Shown piece after piece: positions 15,869 through 21,993 of a stretch of DNA of 64,000 bases. Numbering within the stretch: the first letter of the stretch is position 1; each line of letters begins with the position of its first letter. Both the position numbers and the translations under genes were made by a program. Source of the stretch: an uncultured delta proteobacterium (GTDB taxonomy: Bacteria; Myxococcota_A; UBA9160; SMWR01); the NCBI GenBank assembly GCA_963832165.1, contig CAWHTE010000002.1:352001-416000 (forward strand). The letters are read 5' to 3'. The notes beneath the pieces are model-generated. The model was not told where the DNA came from and made no database searches. It saw only the letters and a program-made list of their open reading frames with translations.

Positions 15869-15996
15869 TCTGTGTGCGGCCTAACGGATCGGCGCTCAGC
15901 TGTCGGCTCGCGGCAACCTTCCGCAACCCCACCGAGCTGCCTTGCCAGACTCTACCAGATTCCGCTAAGGCGCAGGCCGGTCATCTGCAGCGCCTT

Positions 15997-16245
15997 CCAT
16001 GAGAAGGCCAGCCTCGTCAAGTGGCGAATAACATTATTTCGTCTCTTATCACGACGCGCAGGCTCCCGAGTCGAACCACCACCAGGCTTCCATCCGCACT
16101 CTCGATGACCTCGGTCTCGCGAGGTCGGTGCACACTGAGGTCCTTGGGCGTCGGGTGCTGCAATCTTGTTATCGACCTCTCCTTGCGAAGGGCCCGGCGT
16201 TATAACGCAGTCACCCGGACACGGCGGTCTCGATCCATCACGGCT
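15997..16245 (-). ncRNA. Putative bridge/seek RNA of the IS1111-type element
   Basis: Stem GGGTGaCTGC/GCAGCACCC encloses an internal loop containing TAACAAG (target left + core); downstream ATGGAAG equals the element circle junction; exact RNA ends unknown. Confidence 0.75.
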
Positions 16246-17304
16246 CTACGCAGCCTGCACGGAAGCGACTCGCACGGGCTCGTAGACCTCTCCCGTCGTC
16301 CACAGACGGTGCAAGAGGACGGCGAGCCGTCTCGCCACCGCGACGATCGCGCGCTTGCGGGCGATGCTCCCTCCGCGCTCCCCCATGCGAAGGCCCGCAC
16401 GTCGCAGATCCGTGTCGGGACCAAAGGGCCCGAGGATGTAGTGCGCAGCACTCACCAACAGACGCCGCAACAGTCGATCCCCTGCCTTCGTGATCCGTAG
16501 CTGGGGATTCTGTTCCCCCGAATCTCGTCGCTTCGGACGAAGCCCGACGTACGCTCCTACTGCGCGGCTCGTCGCAAATCGGCGCGGGTCCTCGATCGTG
16601 AGCACGTAGTACAGCGCCGTGATCGGCCCCACGCCCGGCACCTGGCGCAGCAGCTCCGTCTCCGGGTAGCGCTCTCGGCACAGCTGCTCCACCTCCCGGT
16701 CCATTTGCCGTATCGTCGCGGTGAGCTGCTCGATCGTGTCGAGGAGCGTCTCCAGCCCGGGGAACAGATCCATCGGCGTCGTCGCGCGCACCCGCTTTGG
16801 AAATGCCTCCGTCGAGCTCGCCGGAACACGCGTCCCCAGCGCCTTCGCGAAACCCCGCACCTGATTCACGAGCTGAGTCCGAGCCCGTACGAGCCCATCC
16901 CGCGTCTGGATCAGGATCCGGTCTCGCTGCGCCTGCGCCCCGCGGTGCACGATCGGCTTCAACAGCGACGGATCCATCCGCCCCAGGCGCGCCAACAGCT
17001 CCGCATCGACGCCGTCGCTTTTCGAGTCGTTCTCCGCGATCAGCCGCACTCGGCGCGGATTCGCGACGATCGCCTCGTGCCCGTGGCGAACGACACAGCG
17101 ACTAACCCATGGCGAGTGCGTCCCTACCTCGAGAACAACCCGACTTGGTGGGAACGAAGCCAACCGCTCCGTCATCGCCGGTTCCGTCGTGCGCACCCGA
17201 AATGCCTCGATCACTGCGCCCGCCGCGTCGAGCACCCGTCCCTCGGTCCACCGGTCGCCTAGGTCCAGACCGATCGTCAACCCGCTCGTGATACGATCAC
17301 CCAC
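16246..17304 (-). CDS. IS110-family DEDD transposase/bridge recombinase
   Basis: IGLDLG, VVLEVG, KSDGVDA (DEDD), VPGVG, RDSG catalytic Ser and RITKAGD; likely GTG start at 17304 after AGGAGG (ORF open to 17346). Confidence 0.95.
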   Translation of the reverse strand: MGDRITSGLTIGLDLGDRWTEGRVLDAAGAVIEAFRVRTTEPAMTERLASFPPSRVVLEVGTHSPWVSRCVVRHGHEAIVANPRRVRLIAENDSKSDGVDAELLARLGRMDPSLLKPIVHRGAQAQRDRILIQTRDGLVRARTQLVNQVRGFAKALGTRVPASSTEAFPKRVRATTPMDLFPGLETLLDTIEQLTATIRQMDREVEQLCRERYPETELLRQVPGVGPITALYYVLTIEDPRRFATSRAVGAYVGLRPKRRDSGEQNPQLRITKAGDRLLRRLLVSAAHYILGPFGPDTDLRRAGLRMGERGGSIARKRAIVAVARRLAVLLHRLWTTGEVYEPVRVASVQAA

Positions 17305-17403
17305 GCCAGCCTCCTGTTTGGGACCCACTCCGTGGTGAGCCCGCAATCGTTGCAGACCTTCACGGTACTGCGTTCAGGAGGCTGGCCTTCTCATCCCATC
17401 TTG

Positions 17404-17898
17404 TTAGGCCGCCGGCTCGCCGACAAGAAGTTTGCATTCCTCAATGATTGCGGTGTCGATCTCCGCGATCGAGTCTAGATCGTCGTCCTCGACGTCGTCG
17501 TAGTTGTAGAAGAGGCCCACCAAGCGAGCAATGCCGAAGGACTCGCCCAGGTACTCGCCGGGCGGTAGTAGCTCGTCGATCTCGCGAAACACCCGCTCGA
17601 CGATGAAACGTGCGCCCTGCCTAGGTGGGATCTCGCCACCGGCTACTTGAGAGGCATAGTGCCGCTTGAGGACCTCGCCTGCGTGGATTGGAGTGGGAAG
17701 AGGATGACCAAGCTCTCGGAGCGCAGACTCGAACAGGCTTCGGAGAAGGTGCGGATCGGAGCGGGATGTCTCGCCAGCGAGAACAGCGAGCGATTTCGAA
17801 TCAAGACCGCCCTCTAGCCATGCCGCAGCTACGCCTGGCAGCTTTTCAGGCGGCAAAAACCCGAGGACGTGGGCGGCGGTGGATTCGTTCAGGTGCAT
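17404..17898 (-). CDS. Cassette-encoded hypothetical acidic alpha-helical protein
   Basis: 164 aa; stop inside R''; cassette ends share GTTAGGCCGCC. Confidence 0.8.
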   Translation of the reverse strand: MHLNESTAAHVLGFLPPEKLPGVAAAWLEGGLDSKSLAVLAGETSRSDPHLLRSLFESALRELGHPLPTPIHAGEVLKRHYASQVAGGEIPPRQGARFIVERVFREIDELLPPGEYLGESFGIARLVGLFYNYDDVEDDDLDSIAEIDTAIIEECKLLVGEPAA

Positions 17899-17907
17899 TT
17901 TCAGGCG

Positions 17908-18021
17908 GCCTAACGGATGGCCGCTAAGCTGCGGCCGCGCGAAATGCTACCACGACCCGCAAGCGCACAGCTGGCCGAGCTGTTGAAGCCCGCGGCCGTC
18001 AGCTTCAGCGGCTTGTTAGAC
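17908..18021 (-). other. attC site 6 (114 bp)
   Basis: R'' GTCTAAC-AAGCC-L'' GCTGAAGC ... L' GCTTAGC-GGCCATCC-R' GTTAGGC. Confidence 0.92.
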
Positions 18022-18387
18022 GGCCACTCGCGCTGGTCGCCAGAACTCCACGAAGAACGACGTTCGGCCTGACAGTGCAACGTGGTGCTCTACCTCAGGC
18101 AGCACGATGCCCGGAGACGCCGGGGTGAGCCGCTGACATCGATTGAAAGGTGCATGCACATAATAGTCGATAGGGCCGTGAGTAATCTGGATGCGAGCCC
18201 AGATGCCTCGCTTCGTGGTGTGAAGCTTGAGGAGAGCTTCAGGAACTGAACTCTCATCGAAGTCTGGCGTTCGGTGGTAGGGCTCGTAGCCGAGTGGAAT
18301 CTCGCTGCGATCACATTGGACACAGTCGAGATCTGTTCCGATCCGCGATTGGCGGCCCTCGGTAGTGAGTACCCATCGTCGGTCGGA
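18016..18387 (-). pseudogene. 5'-truncated duplicate of the DUF3565/DUF1971 cassette gene
   Basis: 18009-18387 is near-identical to 18886-19264 (offset 877, about five substitutions seen). Confidence 0.9.
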
Positions 18388-18887
18388 TCAGAAGCGCGGC
18401 GACCCTACCTGCGTGCTGATCACGGCGCGGTCCGTCACGCAAAGAAGGCCAAGACAAACGAACGCGATGTCTGCGGAAACCTGGGCGCTCGAGCGAAAAA
18501 ATGAACGAGCGCGCGGTCACAACAAGGCGGCGGTCGCCCTGGCGAACAAACTCGCGCGGATCGTATGGGGGGTGTGGAAACACGACCGCGCCTACTGCAG
18601 TCCGTCTCAGAGCTAGAAACCCCATCGGCTGATTCGAGCGAACGACGATGATGGCGCACCGGTTCGGACCGGCGCAGGACCAGGCCGACAACAAGCATGG
18701 CCTCAGAGGCCGCTGTCCAGCGATTGGCCCCCTGCGCGCGACTTTCCATCATGGCCCGGAGCCGAGTGCTCCACACACGAGGCCGGAGATACGACTGCAG
18801 TCGAACCCAGCGCCAAAATCGTTCGAAAGGAGCTCCGAAGTAAAAGATCAGCGCGAAGAATCAGATTGACGGAGGAGTCCAGATACG
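18383..18887 (+). mobile_element. 5'-truncated remnant of a second IS1111-type (attC-targeting) element: frameshifted transposase C-terminus, 3' non-coding region and right end
   Basis: GRI.KRGDP...RGHNKAAVALANKLARIVWGVW* (stop at 18616); right end TTGACggaggagtccagata|CG abuts the attC stub gcttGTTAGAC. Confidence 0.85.
18617..18885 (+). ncRNA. Putative bridge/seek RNA of the second element
   Basis: Stem GCGCAGG/CCTGCGC (18672-18737) encloses AACAAGC and CAGCG, matching the two strands of the attC target; AGATACG (18787-18793) matches the element right end + core. Confidence 0.7.
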
Positions 18888-18898
18888 GCTTGTTAGAC
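18886..18898 (-). other. attC site 7 stub (R'' GTCTAAC + spacer only)
   Basis: Identical to the R'' end of attC6; the remainder is replaced by the IS remnant. Confidence 0.8.
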
Positions 18899-19366
18899 GG
18901 CCACTCGCGCTGGTCGCCAGAACTCCACGAAGAACGACGCTCGGCCTGACAGTGCAACGTGGTGCTCTACCTCAGGCAGCACGATGCCCGGAGACGCCGG
19001 GGTGAGCCGCTGACATCGATTGAAAGGTGCATGCACATAATAGTCGATAGAGCCGTGAGTAATCTGGATGCGAGCCCAGATGCCTCGCTTCGTGGTGTGA
19101 AGCTTAAGGAGAGCTTCAGGAACTGAACTCTCATCGAAGTCTGGCGTTCGGTGGTAGGGCTCGTAGCCGAGTGGAATCTCGCTGCGATCACATTGGACAC
19201 AGTCGAGATCTGTTCCGATCCGCGATTGGCGGCCCTCGGTAGTGAGTACCCATTGTCGTTCGGAGAAGGGCGGGCCGTGCCGCGTGTGTCGGCGGTGTCC
19301 GCACGCAAGCTCGGCAACCCATTCGGAATCGATGTCTTCGGCAAACGCGACGATCGGTCGATTCAT
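18893..19366 (-). CDS. First cassette: DUF3565 domain fused to a DUF1971 (TehB/YeaR-like cupin) domain
   Basis: EWVAELACGHRRHTRH.PP...LDC..C followed by YHRTPDFDESSVPEALL..HTTKRGIW...PEVEHHV...FFVEFW; cassette ends share GTTAGACGGCCA. Confidence 0.85.
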   Translation of the reverse strand: MNRPIVAFAEDIDSEWVAELACGHRRHTRHGPPFSERQWVLTTEGRQSRIGTDLDCVQCDRSEIPLGYEPYHRTPDFDESSVPEALLKLHTTKRGIWARIQITHGSIDYYVHAPFNRCQRLTPASPGIVLPEVEHHVALSGRASFFVEFWRPARVAV

Positions 19367-19383
19367 TGATTGTGGGAATGGCC

Positions 19384-19545
19384 GTCTAACTTGAATTCGA
19401 CAGGTCTGCGTAACACCCGGCACACAGCAGAGAAGCTGGCGTAACACGGGCGCAGGAGAGATATACCACGCGTGAAGCCGCCGTATCGCCAGCGTTTGCA
19501 AGCGGCAGCGGCGGTAGGTTCCGGCGTTGGGCAGGTCTGCGTAAC
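19384..19545 (-). other. attI-like site: core GTTAGAC preceded by three GTTACGC direct repeats
   Basis: No matching R''/L'' arm upstream; 14-bp repeat at 19401-19414 and 19532-19545; third GTTACGC at 19439-19445. Confidence 0.65.
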
Positions 19546-19636
19546 GCCGCCCGGGCAGGGGCGATCGCGTGTACTGCGCTCGGCGTGTCGCGCCCTCGTC
19601 GCGCCGGGAGTGGGAGGGGCGAACGAAGCCGCGGAA

Positions 19637-19657
19637 CGCGGGTTTCACCCGCCCTAC
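19637..19657 (-). repeat. GTAG-type REP-like hairpin GTAGGGCGGGTGAAACCCGCG
   Basis: GTAG + GC-rich hairpin overlapping the BolA stop codon; related to 31740-31854. Confidence 0.55.
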
Positions 19658-19923
19658 GCGGTCTCGGTGATCAACCGGTCGATCGCGTGAACGGGCGCAT
19701 CGTCGCCCTTCATGAGATGCGCGATCGCGGCATACACGCGCTGCTGCTGCACGACCCGGCCCTGCTGCGCGAACGTCGCCGATACGACGCGAATCTCGAA
19801 GTGTCCGCCGCCGTTCGCGCGCACCTCGACGCGCGCGTCGGGAAACGCCGCCGCGATCGCCCGCTCGAGATCGCGCGCCGTGTCGCCGGACGAGCTCGGT
19901 GAGGAGAGGATCTGGATCGGCAC
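19654..19923 (-). CDS. BolA/IbaG family protein
   Basis: GGGHFEIRVVSATF...QQRVYAAI...VHAI. Confidence 0.9.
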   Translation of the reverse strand: MPIQILSSPSSSGDTARDLERAIAAAFPDARVEVRANGGGHFEIRVVSATFAQQGRVVQQQRVYAAIAHLMKGDDAPVHAIDRLITETA

Positions 19924-19935
19924 TCGCCTCCCGGA

Positions 19936-21993
19936 CTACTGCCCGCCGCGAGCCACGGCCTCGGCGCCCGGTCCGTCGCGGTGGGTCAATGCGACCAGGT
20001 CGGCGAGCACCTCGACCGCCTCGGTGACCTGGGGATCGTTCTCTTCCTCGGGCTCCGGCTTCGCCTTCGCCTTGGCCTTCGAATCGCCGCCCTTCGCCTT
20101 GTCCTTCGCCTTGTCCTTGTCCTTGTTGCCGTTCGAGCCGTTGGCCTTGGCGTTCGAGTCCTCGCGCTCCTTGATGATGTCGGCGAGACGCACGATGCCT
20201 TCGTGGGCCTTCGCCTCCGCGAGCTTGGTGCGCACCTCTTCGAACTCCGAGCTCTTCGCGATGCGCTCCGACGAAGTTCGCACGAGCTCGGCGAGCGCGG
20301 GCCCCGAGACCTGGCTGTCGACGTCGGCGGGACCGATCGCGTTCGCGAAGCTGCCGTAGAGCGCGGGACGGCTCTCCCCCGAGAGCGCGAACGGCTGATG
20401 CCGCTCGCCGAGGTCGTCGGTGGCGAGCAGCGACGGAATCACCACGTCCGCGGCAACGCCGTCGTTCTGCGTCGAGCGCCCGCCCGGGCGGAAGAAGCGC
20501 GCCGTGGTGATCTTGAGCGCGCCGAGGCCCGGCGGAAGCGGAGTCACGGTCTGCACGGTGCCCTTGCCGAAGGTGTGGTCGTCGCCCGTGATCACGGCGC
20601 GGCGGTAGTCCTTGAGTGCGCCCGCGAGGATCTCCGACGCCGACGCGGACACGCGCGAGACGTGTACGACCATCGGCCCGGTGTAGAGAATCCGCTCGTC
20701 GCGGTCGGACAGCACGCTCATCTGTCGGCGCGCGTTCTCCACTCCCACGACTTCGCCCTTGCGGATGAAGAATCCCGAGATCTTGACCGCGTGCTCGAGC
20801 AGCCCGCCACCGTTGCGCGAGAGGTCGAGCAGGAGCCCATCCGCCTTCGCCTCCTTCACCTGCGTGAGGAGGTTCTCGACGTCGTCGGTGCACTGGCGCT
20901 GACCCGGGTCCGAGTCGCCGTAGAAGGAGGGGAGGTCGATGATCGCGAGCTTGAACGGCTTGCCGTTGCGCTCGCGCGTCTCGAAGCGCAGGCTGGCCGC
21001 CTGCTCAGCGAGATCGATCTTGTCGCGCACGATCGCGAGCGGGAAGCGCTCCGTCTCGTCGCCCTGGCGCAGCACGGTCAGGTGGACCTTGGTGCCTTTC
21101 TTGCCGCGGATCAGGCTGACCGCGTCGCGCAGCGGCATGTCCACGATGTTGACCGCCTCGCCGCCCTCTTCCGCGACCGCGATGATCTTGTCGTTGGGCT
21201 CGAGACCGTTCTCGATCCGGTCGGCGGCGCCGCCCGGGATGATCCGCTCGACCACCGAGTAGCCGTCGCGCTCGGACAGCGCGACGCCGATTCCCTCGAG
21301 CGAGAGCGACATCGAGATGCGGAAGTCCTCGACCGCTTCCGGCGACAGGTAGTTCGAGTGCGGGTCGAGGGCGGTCGCGAACGAATCGAGGAAGATCGAG
21401 AAGATCTCCCACTGCGGGATCTCGCGCAGGCGCTTGGTGCGCAGCTCGTAGCGGTGCGCGAGCAGTCGCTTCGCCTCGGCGAGCTTCTCTCCGGCTCCGA
21501 GATAGTTCGACATCTGGAAGTGGACGAGGCGCCGCCAGAGCTCGTTGCGCTCGTCCTCGTTCTTCGGATAGCCGCGCTCGTCCGGGTCGATCCGGATCTC
21601 GACGCTCTCGTCGAGCTTGAAGTTCTCGTCGGCCATGAGCGCCTTCGCGTGGACTTCCGACGCGGTCTGCAGCGCGATCAGTCGCTCGTGGACGCCCATG
21701 ATCTGGCTGCAGTTCCCGGCCTGGAGGTTCTCGAACACGCCCGCGAGCTTCGCGCGCAGCTCGCCGACCTCGTTCTCGAGCATCAAGCTGCGAGAGGTAT
21801 CGAGGCGGTGGAGATAGCTCTCGATGGCGCGCTGCTCGATGTCGGCGCCGAGCGCGCTCTGGGTCACGTGGTGTTTCAGGAACTCGCGCGCGAGCTGACC
21901 GATGCTCGGGCAGTCGAGCTCGGCGGCCGCGGGCGTCGCGACGACCAGAGCAGCGAGCAGGGCCAGGGAACGGCGAATTTGGCGCAGGATCAT
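19936..21993 (-). CDS. prc: Tail-specific (C-terminal processing) protease, S41A
   Basis: LDPHSNY, LEGIG PDZ domain, DLSRNGGGLL, SASASEILAGAL and TFGKGTVQ. Confidence 0.92.
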   Translation of the reverse strand: MILRQIRRSLALLAALVVATPAAAELDCPSIGQLAREFLKHHVTQSALGADIEQRAIESYLHRLDTSRSLMLENEVGELRAKLAGVFENLQAGNCSQIMGVHERLIALQTASEVHAKALMADENFKLDESVEIRIDPDERGYPKNEDERNELWRRLVHFQMSNYLGAGEKLAEAKRLLAHRYELRTKRLREIPQWEIFSIFLDSFATALDPHSNYLSPEAVEDFRISMSLSLEGIGVALSERDGYSVVERIIPGGAADRIENGLEPNDKIIAVAEEGGEAVNIVDMPLRDAVSLIRGKKGTKVHLTVLRQGDETERFPLAIVRDKIDLAEQAASLRFETRERNGKPFKLAIIDLPSFYGDSDPGQRQCTDDVENLLTQVKEAKADGLLLDLSRNGGGLLEHAVKISGFFIRKGEVVGVENARRQMSVLSDRDERILYTGPMVVHVSRVSASASEILAGALKDYRRAVITGDDHTFGKGTVQTVTPLPPGLGALKITTARFFRPGGRSTQNDGVAADVVIPSLLATDDLGERHQPFALSGESRPALYGSFANAIGPADVDSQVSGPALAELVRTSSERIAKSSEFEEVRTKLAEAKAHEGIVRLADIIKEREDSNAKANGSNGNKDKDKAKDKAKGGDSKAKAKAKPEPEEENDPQVTEAVEVLADLVALTHRDGPGAEAVARGGQ

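What the first reader, a model, noticed from the sequence alone, without database searches (positions are those of the whole stretch)
18383..18898. Second, different attC-targeting IS1111 remnant with its own guide set: two RNA-guided elements converge on the same attC arm
Seen: a plus-strand transposase C-terminus, a 270-nt non-coding region and a right end fused to CGgcttGTTAGAC. The intact sister site attC6 gives the pre-insertion target ttCAG-CG-GCTTGTT. Inside the stem at 18672-18737 the loop holds AACAAGC (18690-18696, reverse complement of GCTTGTT) and CAGCG (18718-18722, target left + core). AGATACG (18787-18793) equals the element's right end + core (18881-18887). The guide order is the same as in the intact element, but the strand and core (CG versus AAG) differ, and the equivalent cores are only a few nt apart in the R''-L'' spacer. 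Inference: the conserved TAACAAG end of these attC sites is a shared landing pad for two bridge-recombinase lineages.
Basis: partly seen in the sequence, partly recalled or inferred. Interest (0 to 1): 0.72.

Follow-up and report, generated by a model that had tools for sequence, protein, structure and literature searches.

The report
Two guided insertion sequences sharing attC
The reported 'remnant' is the tail of a known type of RNA-guided jumping gene that lands in integron recombination sites, and it probably looks broken only because of an assembly error; the less ordinary part is a distantly related neighbour that lands five bases away in the opposite direction using the same two guide words in swapped order.

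Summary
All quoted motifs are at the stated coordinates. The element (A) belongs to the known IS1111-attC group. Full-length relatives encode transposases about 50% identical to those of ISKpn4, ISPa21 and ISPa25. They share the ISPa25-type ends, the same insertion point (after attC base 13, antisense) and an alignable RNA; the model scores 60-82 bits on the named elements. The left end is TGATG(A/G)(G/A), so TTCCATCA does complement it. The 'CG core' is not duplicated (0 of 31 elements with both ends). The 'remnant' status is probably false. Bases 18378-~18505 are a blend of transposase and the neighbouring cassette, beside a 370-bp near-exact duplication, and another run holds a near-identical copy without those indels. 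attC6 may therefore be the empty allele of the same site, not a sister. The convergence claim holds, but the new part is the neighbouring intact element (B, 15996-17401). It is ISAcp5-like, 26-32% identical to A and to the named elements, and its guides covary with diverse targets. One branch inserts after attC base 8 in the sense orientation, with the two guides in mirror order. No RNA or activity data exist.

The parts
15879..15995 (-). Body of the attC site interrupted by element B (L''-side arm to R')
   Evidence: Joined in a script to 17402-17409 it folds as an attC-like hairpin, -25.5 kcal/mol
15996..17401 (-). Element B: intact ISAcp5-like IS1111-family element, 7-nt left extension, subterminal inverted repeats, 3-nt right extension; inserted after attC base 8, sense to the cassettes
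   Evidence: Inverted repeat I15; ends conserved in relatives
16246..17304 (-). Transposase of B, 352 aa
   Evidence: PF01548 and PF02371; 26-28% identical to ISKpn4, ISPa21, ISPa62 and ISPa25
16077..16237 (-). Predicted bridge/seek RNA of B: right-target guide at 16196-16205, left-target guide TAACAAG at 16165-16171
   Evidence: Alignment A3, 14 of 35 pairs with a two-sided change; guide-flank covariation; model R2
17402..17409 (-). R'' box plus one spacer base left beside B's left end
   Evidence: Sequence
17908..18021 (-). attC6, uninterrupted; gives the pre-insertion target of A; either a sister site or the empty allele of the site at 18886
   Evidence: Hairpin -33.0 kcal/mol; its last 13 nt equal 18886-18898
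18022..18387 (-). Partial second copy of the first cassette (3 substitutions against 18899-19264, two of them non-synonymous)
18378..18505 (+). Blended stretch: transposase of A with 7 small deletions and 4 small insertions against its closest relative, colinear also with cassette bases from 19255 on; probable consensus artefact
   Evidence: loose end and gap count of X1 record 8
18506..18616 (+). Clean 3' end of the transposase gene of A, stop at 18614-18616
18655..18808 (+). Predicted bridge/seek RNA of A
   Evidence: Consensus fold; model R1 hits ISPa25, ISPa62, ISKpn4 and ISPa21
18690..18696 (+). Right-target guide (complement of GCTTGTT)
   Evidence: Covaries with right flanks, 0 of 5000 permutations reach the observed match
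18718..18722 (+). Left-target guide (CAG plus the target's CG)
   Evidence: 30 of 39 left flanks end in CAG; two retargeted relatives change guide and flank together (L197, L203)
18744..18751 (+). Donor guide complementary to the left end
   Evidence: 38 of 39 left ends begin TGATG; ISKpn4 and ISPa62 have a different left end and a matching different guide
18787..18793 (+). Donor guide equal to the right end plus the target's CG
   Evidence: same layout in ISPa25, ISKpn4, ISPa62
18871..18885 (+). Right subterminal inverted repeat and 3-nt extension ATA
   Evidence: 64 of 67 right ends read ATA; same as ISPa25 but for one base
18886..18898 (-). attC R'' box, 5-nt spacer and first L'' base left beside A's right end
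18893..19366 (-). First cassette gene (DUF3565 plus DUF1971, about 157 aa), stop codon in R''
   Evidence: Pfam hits inside the long frame 18893-20893; translation
19384..19390 (-). Core site opening the array (attI-like; no attC hairpin, no intI beside it)
   Evidence: no TIGR02249 match over the cut-off in the assembly

Best explanation
18378-18885 is the 3' part of an ISPa25/ISKpn4-type IS1111-attC element (A). Its downstream RNA has a target loop (right guide, then left guide) and a donor loop (left-end guide, then right-end guide). By analogy with ISKpn4 and ISPst6, the RNA binds the DEDD transposase and places the circular element after base 13 of attC, antisense to the cassettes, with no target duplication. 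The apparent truncation is most likely an assembly consensus that merged cassette and transposase reads, so the real element is probably full length, and attC6 is either the empty allele or a tandem sister. The neighbouring element B comes from a distant, ISAcp5-like IS1111 lineage in which one branch was retargeted to the same attC arm. B's RNA carries the same two guide words, pairing with the same DNA strands, in reverse order, so it inserts in the opposite orientation, after base 8. Either insertion splits the other's target. Shown here: ends, junctions, guide-flank covariation, RNA-family membership, lineage distance, the blended stretch. Inferred: RNA expression and binding, circle formation, activity, the cause of the blend, the direction of retargeting.
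For: Full-length relatives of A lie in attC: 30 of 39 left flanks end in CAG, and 51 of 67 right flanks match a strict R-box pattern. Named elements have the same junction geometry: ISPa25 TTGAG|CG, ISPa62 TTGAA|CG. Transposases are 50-52% identical to the named ones. Model R1 scores ISPa25 82, ISPa62 62.5, ISKpn4 61 and ISPa21 59.6 bits and does not hit B. Natural guide variants follow their flanks in A (54 pairs, 0 of 5000 permutations) and in B (19 right and 21 left guide pairs, 0 of 5000 each). Blend: alignment score to the cassette continuation 37, against 8.5-19.5 for 22 relatives, 0 of 2000 random-indel simulations in each of 4 sets, and 0 of 3104 other window stretches. X1 record 8 differs from 18434-18822 by 1 substitution and 12 gap letters, and its 5' loose end reads like L071. 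The window has exactly 12 gap letters against L071 in 18434-18520. B: 13 of 52 distinct left-junction strings follow an R'' box; the four attC-targeting rows sit inside clades with other targets.
Against: No raw reads of the source sample were available, so neither the artefact nor the 18885/18886 junction is directly tested. X1 has depth 2-5 and covers none of the cassette genes, so it need not be the same organism. The 30-nt block comparison did not separate the blended from the clean part (16-23 matches per block throughout), and only 14 of 21 non-IS positions match the cassette. The tree is the quick one, midpoint-rooted, with SH-aLRT of only 84-87 on the branches that nest attC targeting, a long-branch warning, and 16 loci left out, among them three attC-targeting B loci. 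Relatives are kin, so permutation counts overstate independence. Sixty-eight A loci were found with an exact pattern of the donor loop, so that loop's invariance among them is by construction. Model R2 weakly hits two A-type RNAs (22.6 and 15.7 bits), so the scaffolds may share distant ancestry.
Confidence: 0.75

Rival explanations
1. The remnant is real: the cassette was duplicated in tandem, A inserted in the middle attC, and a deletion through a short microhomology removed the element's 5' part, followed by decay.
For: The copies differ at 3 positions. There is about 10 nt of similarity between cassette and transposase at the junction. Truncated A copies occur in relatives (L006, L007, L015). 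No other copy of A is in the assembly.
Against: Decay would not put 11 indel events in 130 nt while the next 370 nt carry about one substitution against X1. It would not make the stretch resemble the colinear cassette continuation.
Confidence: 0.15
2. A and B share attC specificity by descent or by exchange of the RNA's target loop, as was proposed for ISPa25 and ISKpn4 (recalled from Post and Hall 2009, not read here), and not by independent retargeting.
For: Both RNAs contain ATAACAA-like words. R2 weakly hits two A-type RNAs. Both lineages occur together in several genomes (G049, G163, G011).
Against: The shared word sits in opposite guide slots (5' in A, 3' in B), and the stems, ends and donor loops differ. 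R1 does not hit B. B's close relatives at 59-69% identity have non-attC guides in the same scaffold.
Confidence: 0.1
3. The guide matches are incidental and both elements find attC through its folded single strand or through protein contacts.
For: attC sites fold into hairpins. A preprint abstract indicates specificity beyond base pairing for another IS110 element (10.64898/2026.03.19.712850, listing only). Several A flanks depart from their guide at 1-2 bases.
Against: Guides change with targets in both lineages, including non-attC targets. The RNA was shown essential and reprogrammable for ISEc11, and bound with matching guides for ISKpn4 and ISPst6 (PMC11187229).
Confidence: 0.05

Closest known systems
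ISPa25 (IS1111 family, attC-targeting; L066)
   Same: Left end TGATGG plus the same subterminal repeat, right end nearly identical, same insertion point and antisense orientation, same order of four guides, best named hit of model R1 (82 bits).
   Different: Transposase only 48-51% identical to lineage A; left-target guide TGAACG against CAGCG, tracking the different L'' boxes; hosts are GC-rich environmental genomes rather than clinical plasmids.
ISKpn4 / ISPa21 / ISPa62 / ISPst6 (IS1111-attC group and its seekRNAs; PMC11187229)
   Same: Same site in attC, downstream non-coding region, top-strand match before bottom-strand match, 7+3 terminal extensions, no duplication; R1 hits at 60-62 bits; transposase about 50% identical.
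   Different: Different left end and donor guide; lineage A forms its own clade (SH-aLRT 98).
ISAcp5 / ISCARN52 subgroup (diverged IS1111-family elements)
   Same: B's transposase shares long C-terminal stretches with ISAcp5 as printed in supplement file 6 of PMC11187229 (compared by eye; not aligned by a tool). That file gives ISAcp5 24-26% identity to ISPst6, ISKpn4 and ISPa21.
   Different: No attC targeting by this subgroup turned up in my searches; B inserts in the sense orientation, whereas the known elements are described as antisense (PMC3001079).
Group IIC-attC introns
   Same: A further RNA-guided element class that inserts near the 5' end of attC on the bottom strand (PMC3001079, passages).
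   Different: Retrohoming by a ribozyme and reverse transcriptase, not a DEDD recombinase.
IS621 bridge RNA system (PMC11208160, PMC13626964)
   Same: Two-loop RNA with target and donor guides.
   Different: IS621 has the RNA upstream and a CT core at both boundaries; lineage A has TG at the left and target-derived CG at the right.

Membership tests
IS1111 family (element A) | DEDD plus PF02371 transposase of 330-350 aa | tested here: met
   Relatives encode 342-345 aa proteins about 50% identical to the ISKpn4 and ISPa25 transposases; the window itself holds only the 3' end
IS1111 family (element A) | Subterminal inverted repeats with 7-nt left and 3-nt right extensions | tested here: met
   39 left ends and 67 right ends among 84 rows; only the right end is in the window
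IS1111 family (element A) | Long non-coding region downstream of tnp with top-strand match 5' of bottom-strand match | tested here: met
   order as described in PMC11187229
IS1111-attC group (element A) | Insertion at the fixed point in attC, antisense to the cassettes, no duplication | tested here: met
   Same position as ISPa25 and ISPa62; 0 of 31 duplications
IS1111-attC group (element A) | Close transposase identity to the ISKpn4 subgroup (ISKpn4, ISPa21, ISPa62 are 76-90% alike) | tested here: not met
   About 50%; A is a separate branch, as ISPa25 is
IS1111-attC group (element A) | RNA expressed and bound; circle formed; transposition | not testable with these tools
   No RNA holder listed
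IS621-type bridge system (element A) | Identical core dinucleotide at both boundaries | tested here: not met
   Left TG in 39 of 39; right CG 50, CC 7, CA 7, other 3 of 67
IS1111 family (element B) | Transposase domains, subterminal repeats, 7+3 extensions, downstream RNA | tested here: met
IS1111-attC group (element B) | Same lineage, site and antisense orientation as ISKpn4 and ISPa25 | tested here: not met
   26-28% identity, site 5 nt nearer R'', sense orientation, no R1 hit
ISAcp5 subgroup (element B) | Transposase clusters with ISAcp5 | tested here: inconclusive
   Compared by eye with the supplement text only; ISAcp5 was not in the tree
Integron cassette array | attC hairpins with co-oriented genes and an adjacent intI | tested here: inconclusive
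   Five sites folded, four as full hairpins closing at the R boxes; no IntI over the cut-off in an 89%-complete assembly, so a CALIN as assembled

The most novel reading that the evidence does not exclude
A and B are a natural mirror pair. Two IS1111-family lineages under one third identical were aimed independently at the same 15-bp attC arm, with the same two guide words in swapped loop positions, giving opposite orientations 5 nt apart and mutually exclusive occupancy. B would be an attC-targeting IS in the sense orientation, which I did not find described. If the blend marks an empty and a filled allele, A was moving in the sampled population. The pair would let one test whether guide order alone sets orientation, and how A-type elements recombine with unmatched TG and CG cores.
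Probability: 0.55. Interest if true: 0.55.

Novelty: new variant of a known kind. Interest (0 to 1): 0.36.

Why it matters
attC-targeting elements freeze cassettes and reshape integron arrays. Finding an unrelated lineage on the same arm in the other orientation shows how readily programmable IS110-family RNAs are retargeted to this abundant site, and it gives a ready comparison for what sets orientation and core tolerance in bridge recombination. The principle is published, so the gain is a new variant and a test case. There is also a practical caution: polymorphic IS insertions in long-contig metagenome assemblies can be rendered as false remnants beside false duplications.

Tried and rejected
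Rfam: no family at gathering score in the window. Other copies of A in the assembly: none by blastn or end motifs, and none at E 1e-60 by protein. Pfam on the open frame P0001: no hit. Sequencing runs: no RNA holder listed, and no run held half of the words. No listed piece spans the stretch, so the junction could not be tested; X2-X4 contigs are mostly relatives. Whole non-coding-region fold: z -2.04, and it pairs part of the guides, so the consensus fold was used. The 30-nt block test of the blend was uninformative. Alignment A1 had one mis-cut row (L079) and was used only for display. The careful tree did not finish; the quick tree was used. 'CG core' rejected. Natural homology between cassette and transposase rejected: relatives score at background. 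Tetu and Holmes 2008 is not held and Post and Hall 2009 was not requested; both were seen only as citations or summaries. Earlier scan notes: nothing by place or by B's sequence. Protein-wide homolog searches, structure prediction and complex prediction were not run, because family membership did not depend on them.

Full report
Setting. The window is G000:C2:352001-416000 of an 11-contig, 70% GC assembly, 89% complete. Between about 13.9 and 19.4 kb lies a minus-strand cassette array. Five attC sites were folded, four giving full hairpins closed at the R boxes. No integron integrase passes the TIGR02249 cut-off in the assembly, so as assembled it is a CALIN.

Observation. Every motif is at the stated place. 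The stem folds with z -2.58, and the two guide words appear in order in 34 of 200,000 shuffles. No other copy of the element is in the assembly.

What element A is. A DNA search found matches in 9 of 61 genomes, the own one included, and a donor-loop pattern gave 68 metagenome loci. Among 84 non-redundant rows, 39 had a left end and 67 a right end. The left end was not part of the pattern, so this is an independent check; the invariance of the donor loop among those 68 loci is by construction. Thirty of 39 left flanks end in CAG, and 51 of 67 right flanks match a strict R-box pattern. None of 31 elements with both ends repeats its first two bases, so CG is target sequence and not a duplicated core. 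Right guides follow right flanks (54 pairs, mean 6.37 against 5.67, 0 of 5000 permutations; kin are not independent), with clear variants such as L080/L092, L084/L118, L104/L130 and L197.

A is of a known kind. Its best plasmid matches include ISPa21, ISKpn4, ISPa62 and ISPa25 at 48-51%. The fetched copies show the same geometry: ISPa25 has the same left-end start and repeat, a right end differing by one base, and the same insertion point after base 13 of attC, antisense to the cassette. Their non-coding regions align column for column with the window's. A covariance model built from A rows only scores ISPa25 82, ISPa62 62.5, ISKpn4 61 and ISPa21 59.6 bits and does not hit element B. Siddiquee et al. 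(PMC11187229; parts 1-5 of 9 read; passages of supplement files 1 and 6; file 5 was unreadable and figures are not held) report seekRNAs for ISKpn4 and ISPst6, the same guide order, and ISPa25 sharing the site with a 46%-identical transposase. They also assign apparent duplications to the element's ends.

The remnant is probably an artefact. Against its closest full-length relative L071 (80% nt), the window has 7 deletions and 4 insertions between 18378 and about 18505. The same stretch aligns colinearly with what follows the same point in the intact cassette copy. The score is 37, against 8.5-19.5 for 22 relatives, none of 2000 random-indel simulations in each of four sets, and none of 3104 other window stretches; without the first 14 nt it is 29.5, with none of 3106 reaching it. 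Run X1 holds a contig matching 18434-18822 with 1 substitution and 12 gap letters, with a 157-nt 5' loose end whose 30 shown letters match L071 at 29. The window has 11 extra letters and 1 missing letter against L071 in 18434-18520, the same 12. I know no biological process that interleaves two unrelated templates in patches of a few bases, whereas a consensus over mixed reads does (own knowledge). The true locus is then either two alleles (empty attC6; attC6 with full-length A) or a tandem cassette with A between. Against this: no source reads were available; X1 is shallow and lacks the cassette genes; the block-wise test was uninformative, and 14 of 21 non-IS positions matching the cassette is weak on its own.

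Element B and the convergence claim. B spans 15996-17401 on the minus strand. Its transposase is 26-28% identical to the named attC elements and 27-32% to lineage A; its best plasmid matches are 31-35%. By eye it resembles ISAcp5 in the supplement. Matches were found in 28 of 193 genomes of the order, the own one included, and at 58 loci of the genome collection. Ends and RNA scaffold are conserved (14 of 35 pairs with two-sided changes), while guides vary with flanks: right guide 6.21 against 4.15 (19 pairs), left guide 4.62 of 7 against 2.05 (21 pairs), 0 of 5000 each. Thirteen of 52 distinct left-junction strings follow an R'' box (one of the 52 is a spurious internal match), and 6 of 34 right junctions read as attC. 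In the quick tree the four attC-targeting rows sit, with one non-attC row, inside clades with other targets. Support on the nesting branches is 84-87, and 16 loci without an extractable frame were left out. B inserts after attC base 8, in the sense orientation; A after base 13, antisense. Both RNAs hold an AACAA word that pairs with the attC bottom strand and a CAGCG- or AGCGCC-type word that pairs with the top strand, but in reverse order. In B the dinucleotide AG usually appears at both junctions, unlike in A.

Mechanism. Shown: geometry, covariation, family relations. Inferred from PMC11187229 and from PMC11208160 and PMC13626964 (passages only): the transposase binds the RNA, the element excises as a circle, and the four guides hold target and donor for strand exchange. 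Swapping which target half is read by the 5' guide reverses the orientation. Each insertion separates the two halves the other needs, so occupancy of one attC should be exclusive. Open: A's donor guide ends in CG, matching the integrated right junction rather than the predicted circle junction with TG; ISPa25 and ISPa62 show the same.

Novelty. PMC3001079 (passages) states that IS1111-attC elements and group IIC-attC introns both insert near the 5' end of attC, antisense, so a shared landing arm is known. Tetu and Holmes 2008 and Post and Hall 2009 were seen only as citations and summaries. PMC12444791 (passages) adds nothing specific. Six searches found no report of an ISAcp5-like or sense-oriented attC element; most subscription papers and ISfinder entries were not searchable, and unseen supplements of Durrant et al. 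may list such targets. Unchecked notes of this scan describe other attC-targeting lineages in other genomes, so repeated retargeting to attC looks common.

Verdict. A is a new member of a known group and probably not a remnant. The convergence is real, and B is a new variant. Interest 0.36.

Noticed in passing
window 15996-17401 and 18434-18822; run X1: One soil run holds four contigs of element B with no differences and one near-identical contig of element A, but none of the cassette genes, suggesting both elements are multi-copy and recent in that sample.
   Followed up: partly
L008 (G018:C150): A short non-autonomous copy of lineage A: left end fused to a right end through the repeat before the start codon, sitting in an attC.
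   Followed up: no
L002, L010, L014, L017, L019 (G056): One relative genome carries at least five A copies, two in neighbouring cassettes of one array, which indicates recent expansion.
   Followed up: partly
L151-L169, L182-L185: Acidobacterial members of lineage B occur in many copies per genome, aimed at a short repeated motif rather than attC, some in tandem.
   Followed up: no
L038, L063: B relatives whose left junction starts GG instead of AG; in L038 the right junction and the left-target guide change as well while the donor guide keeps AG, so the first core base may come from the target.
   Followed up: no
L200 (G011:C415): An IS1111 element 39% identical to A with the same RNA scaffold (44 bits) whose guide matches a non-attC flank: a same-scaffold outgroup.
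   Followed up: partly
G000 C4:694976 and 695773, C5:197573 and 198149, C7:817023, C11:96583: Further attC-like arms elsewhere in the genome; the two on C4 carry A's full target and are empty; those on C5 and C11 lie next to other IS110-family genes.
   Followed up: no
window 18893-19366 (-): The first cassette encodes a DUF3565-DUF1971 fusion; run X2 holds 210 nt of it (19177-19386) with no differences.
   Followed up: no
L008 and L011 right flanks: The same downstream sequence with short direct repeats follows the attC arm in two genomes, and a similar start follows L071; possibly another mobile element that uses R''.
   Followed up: no
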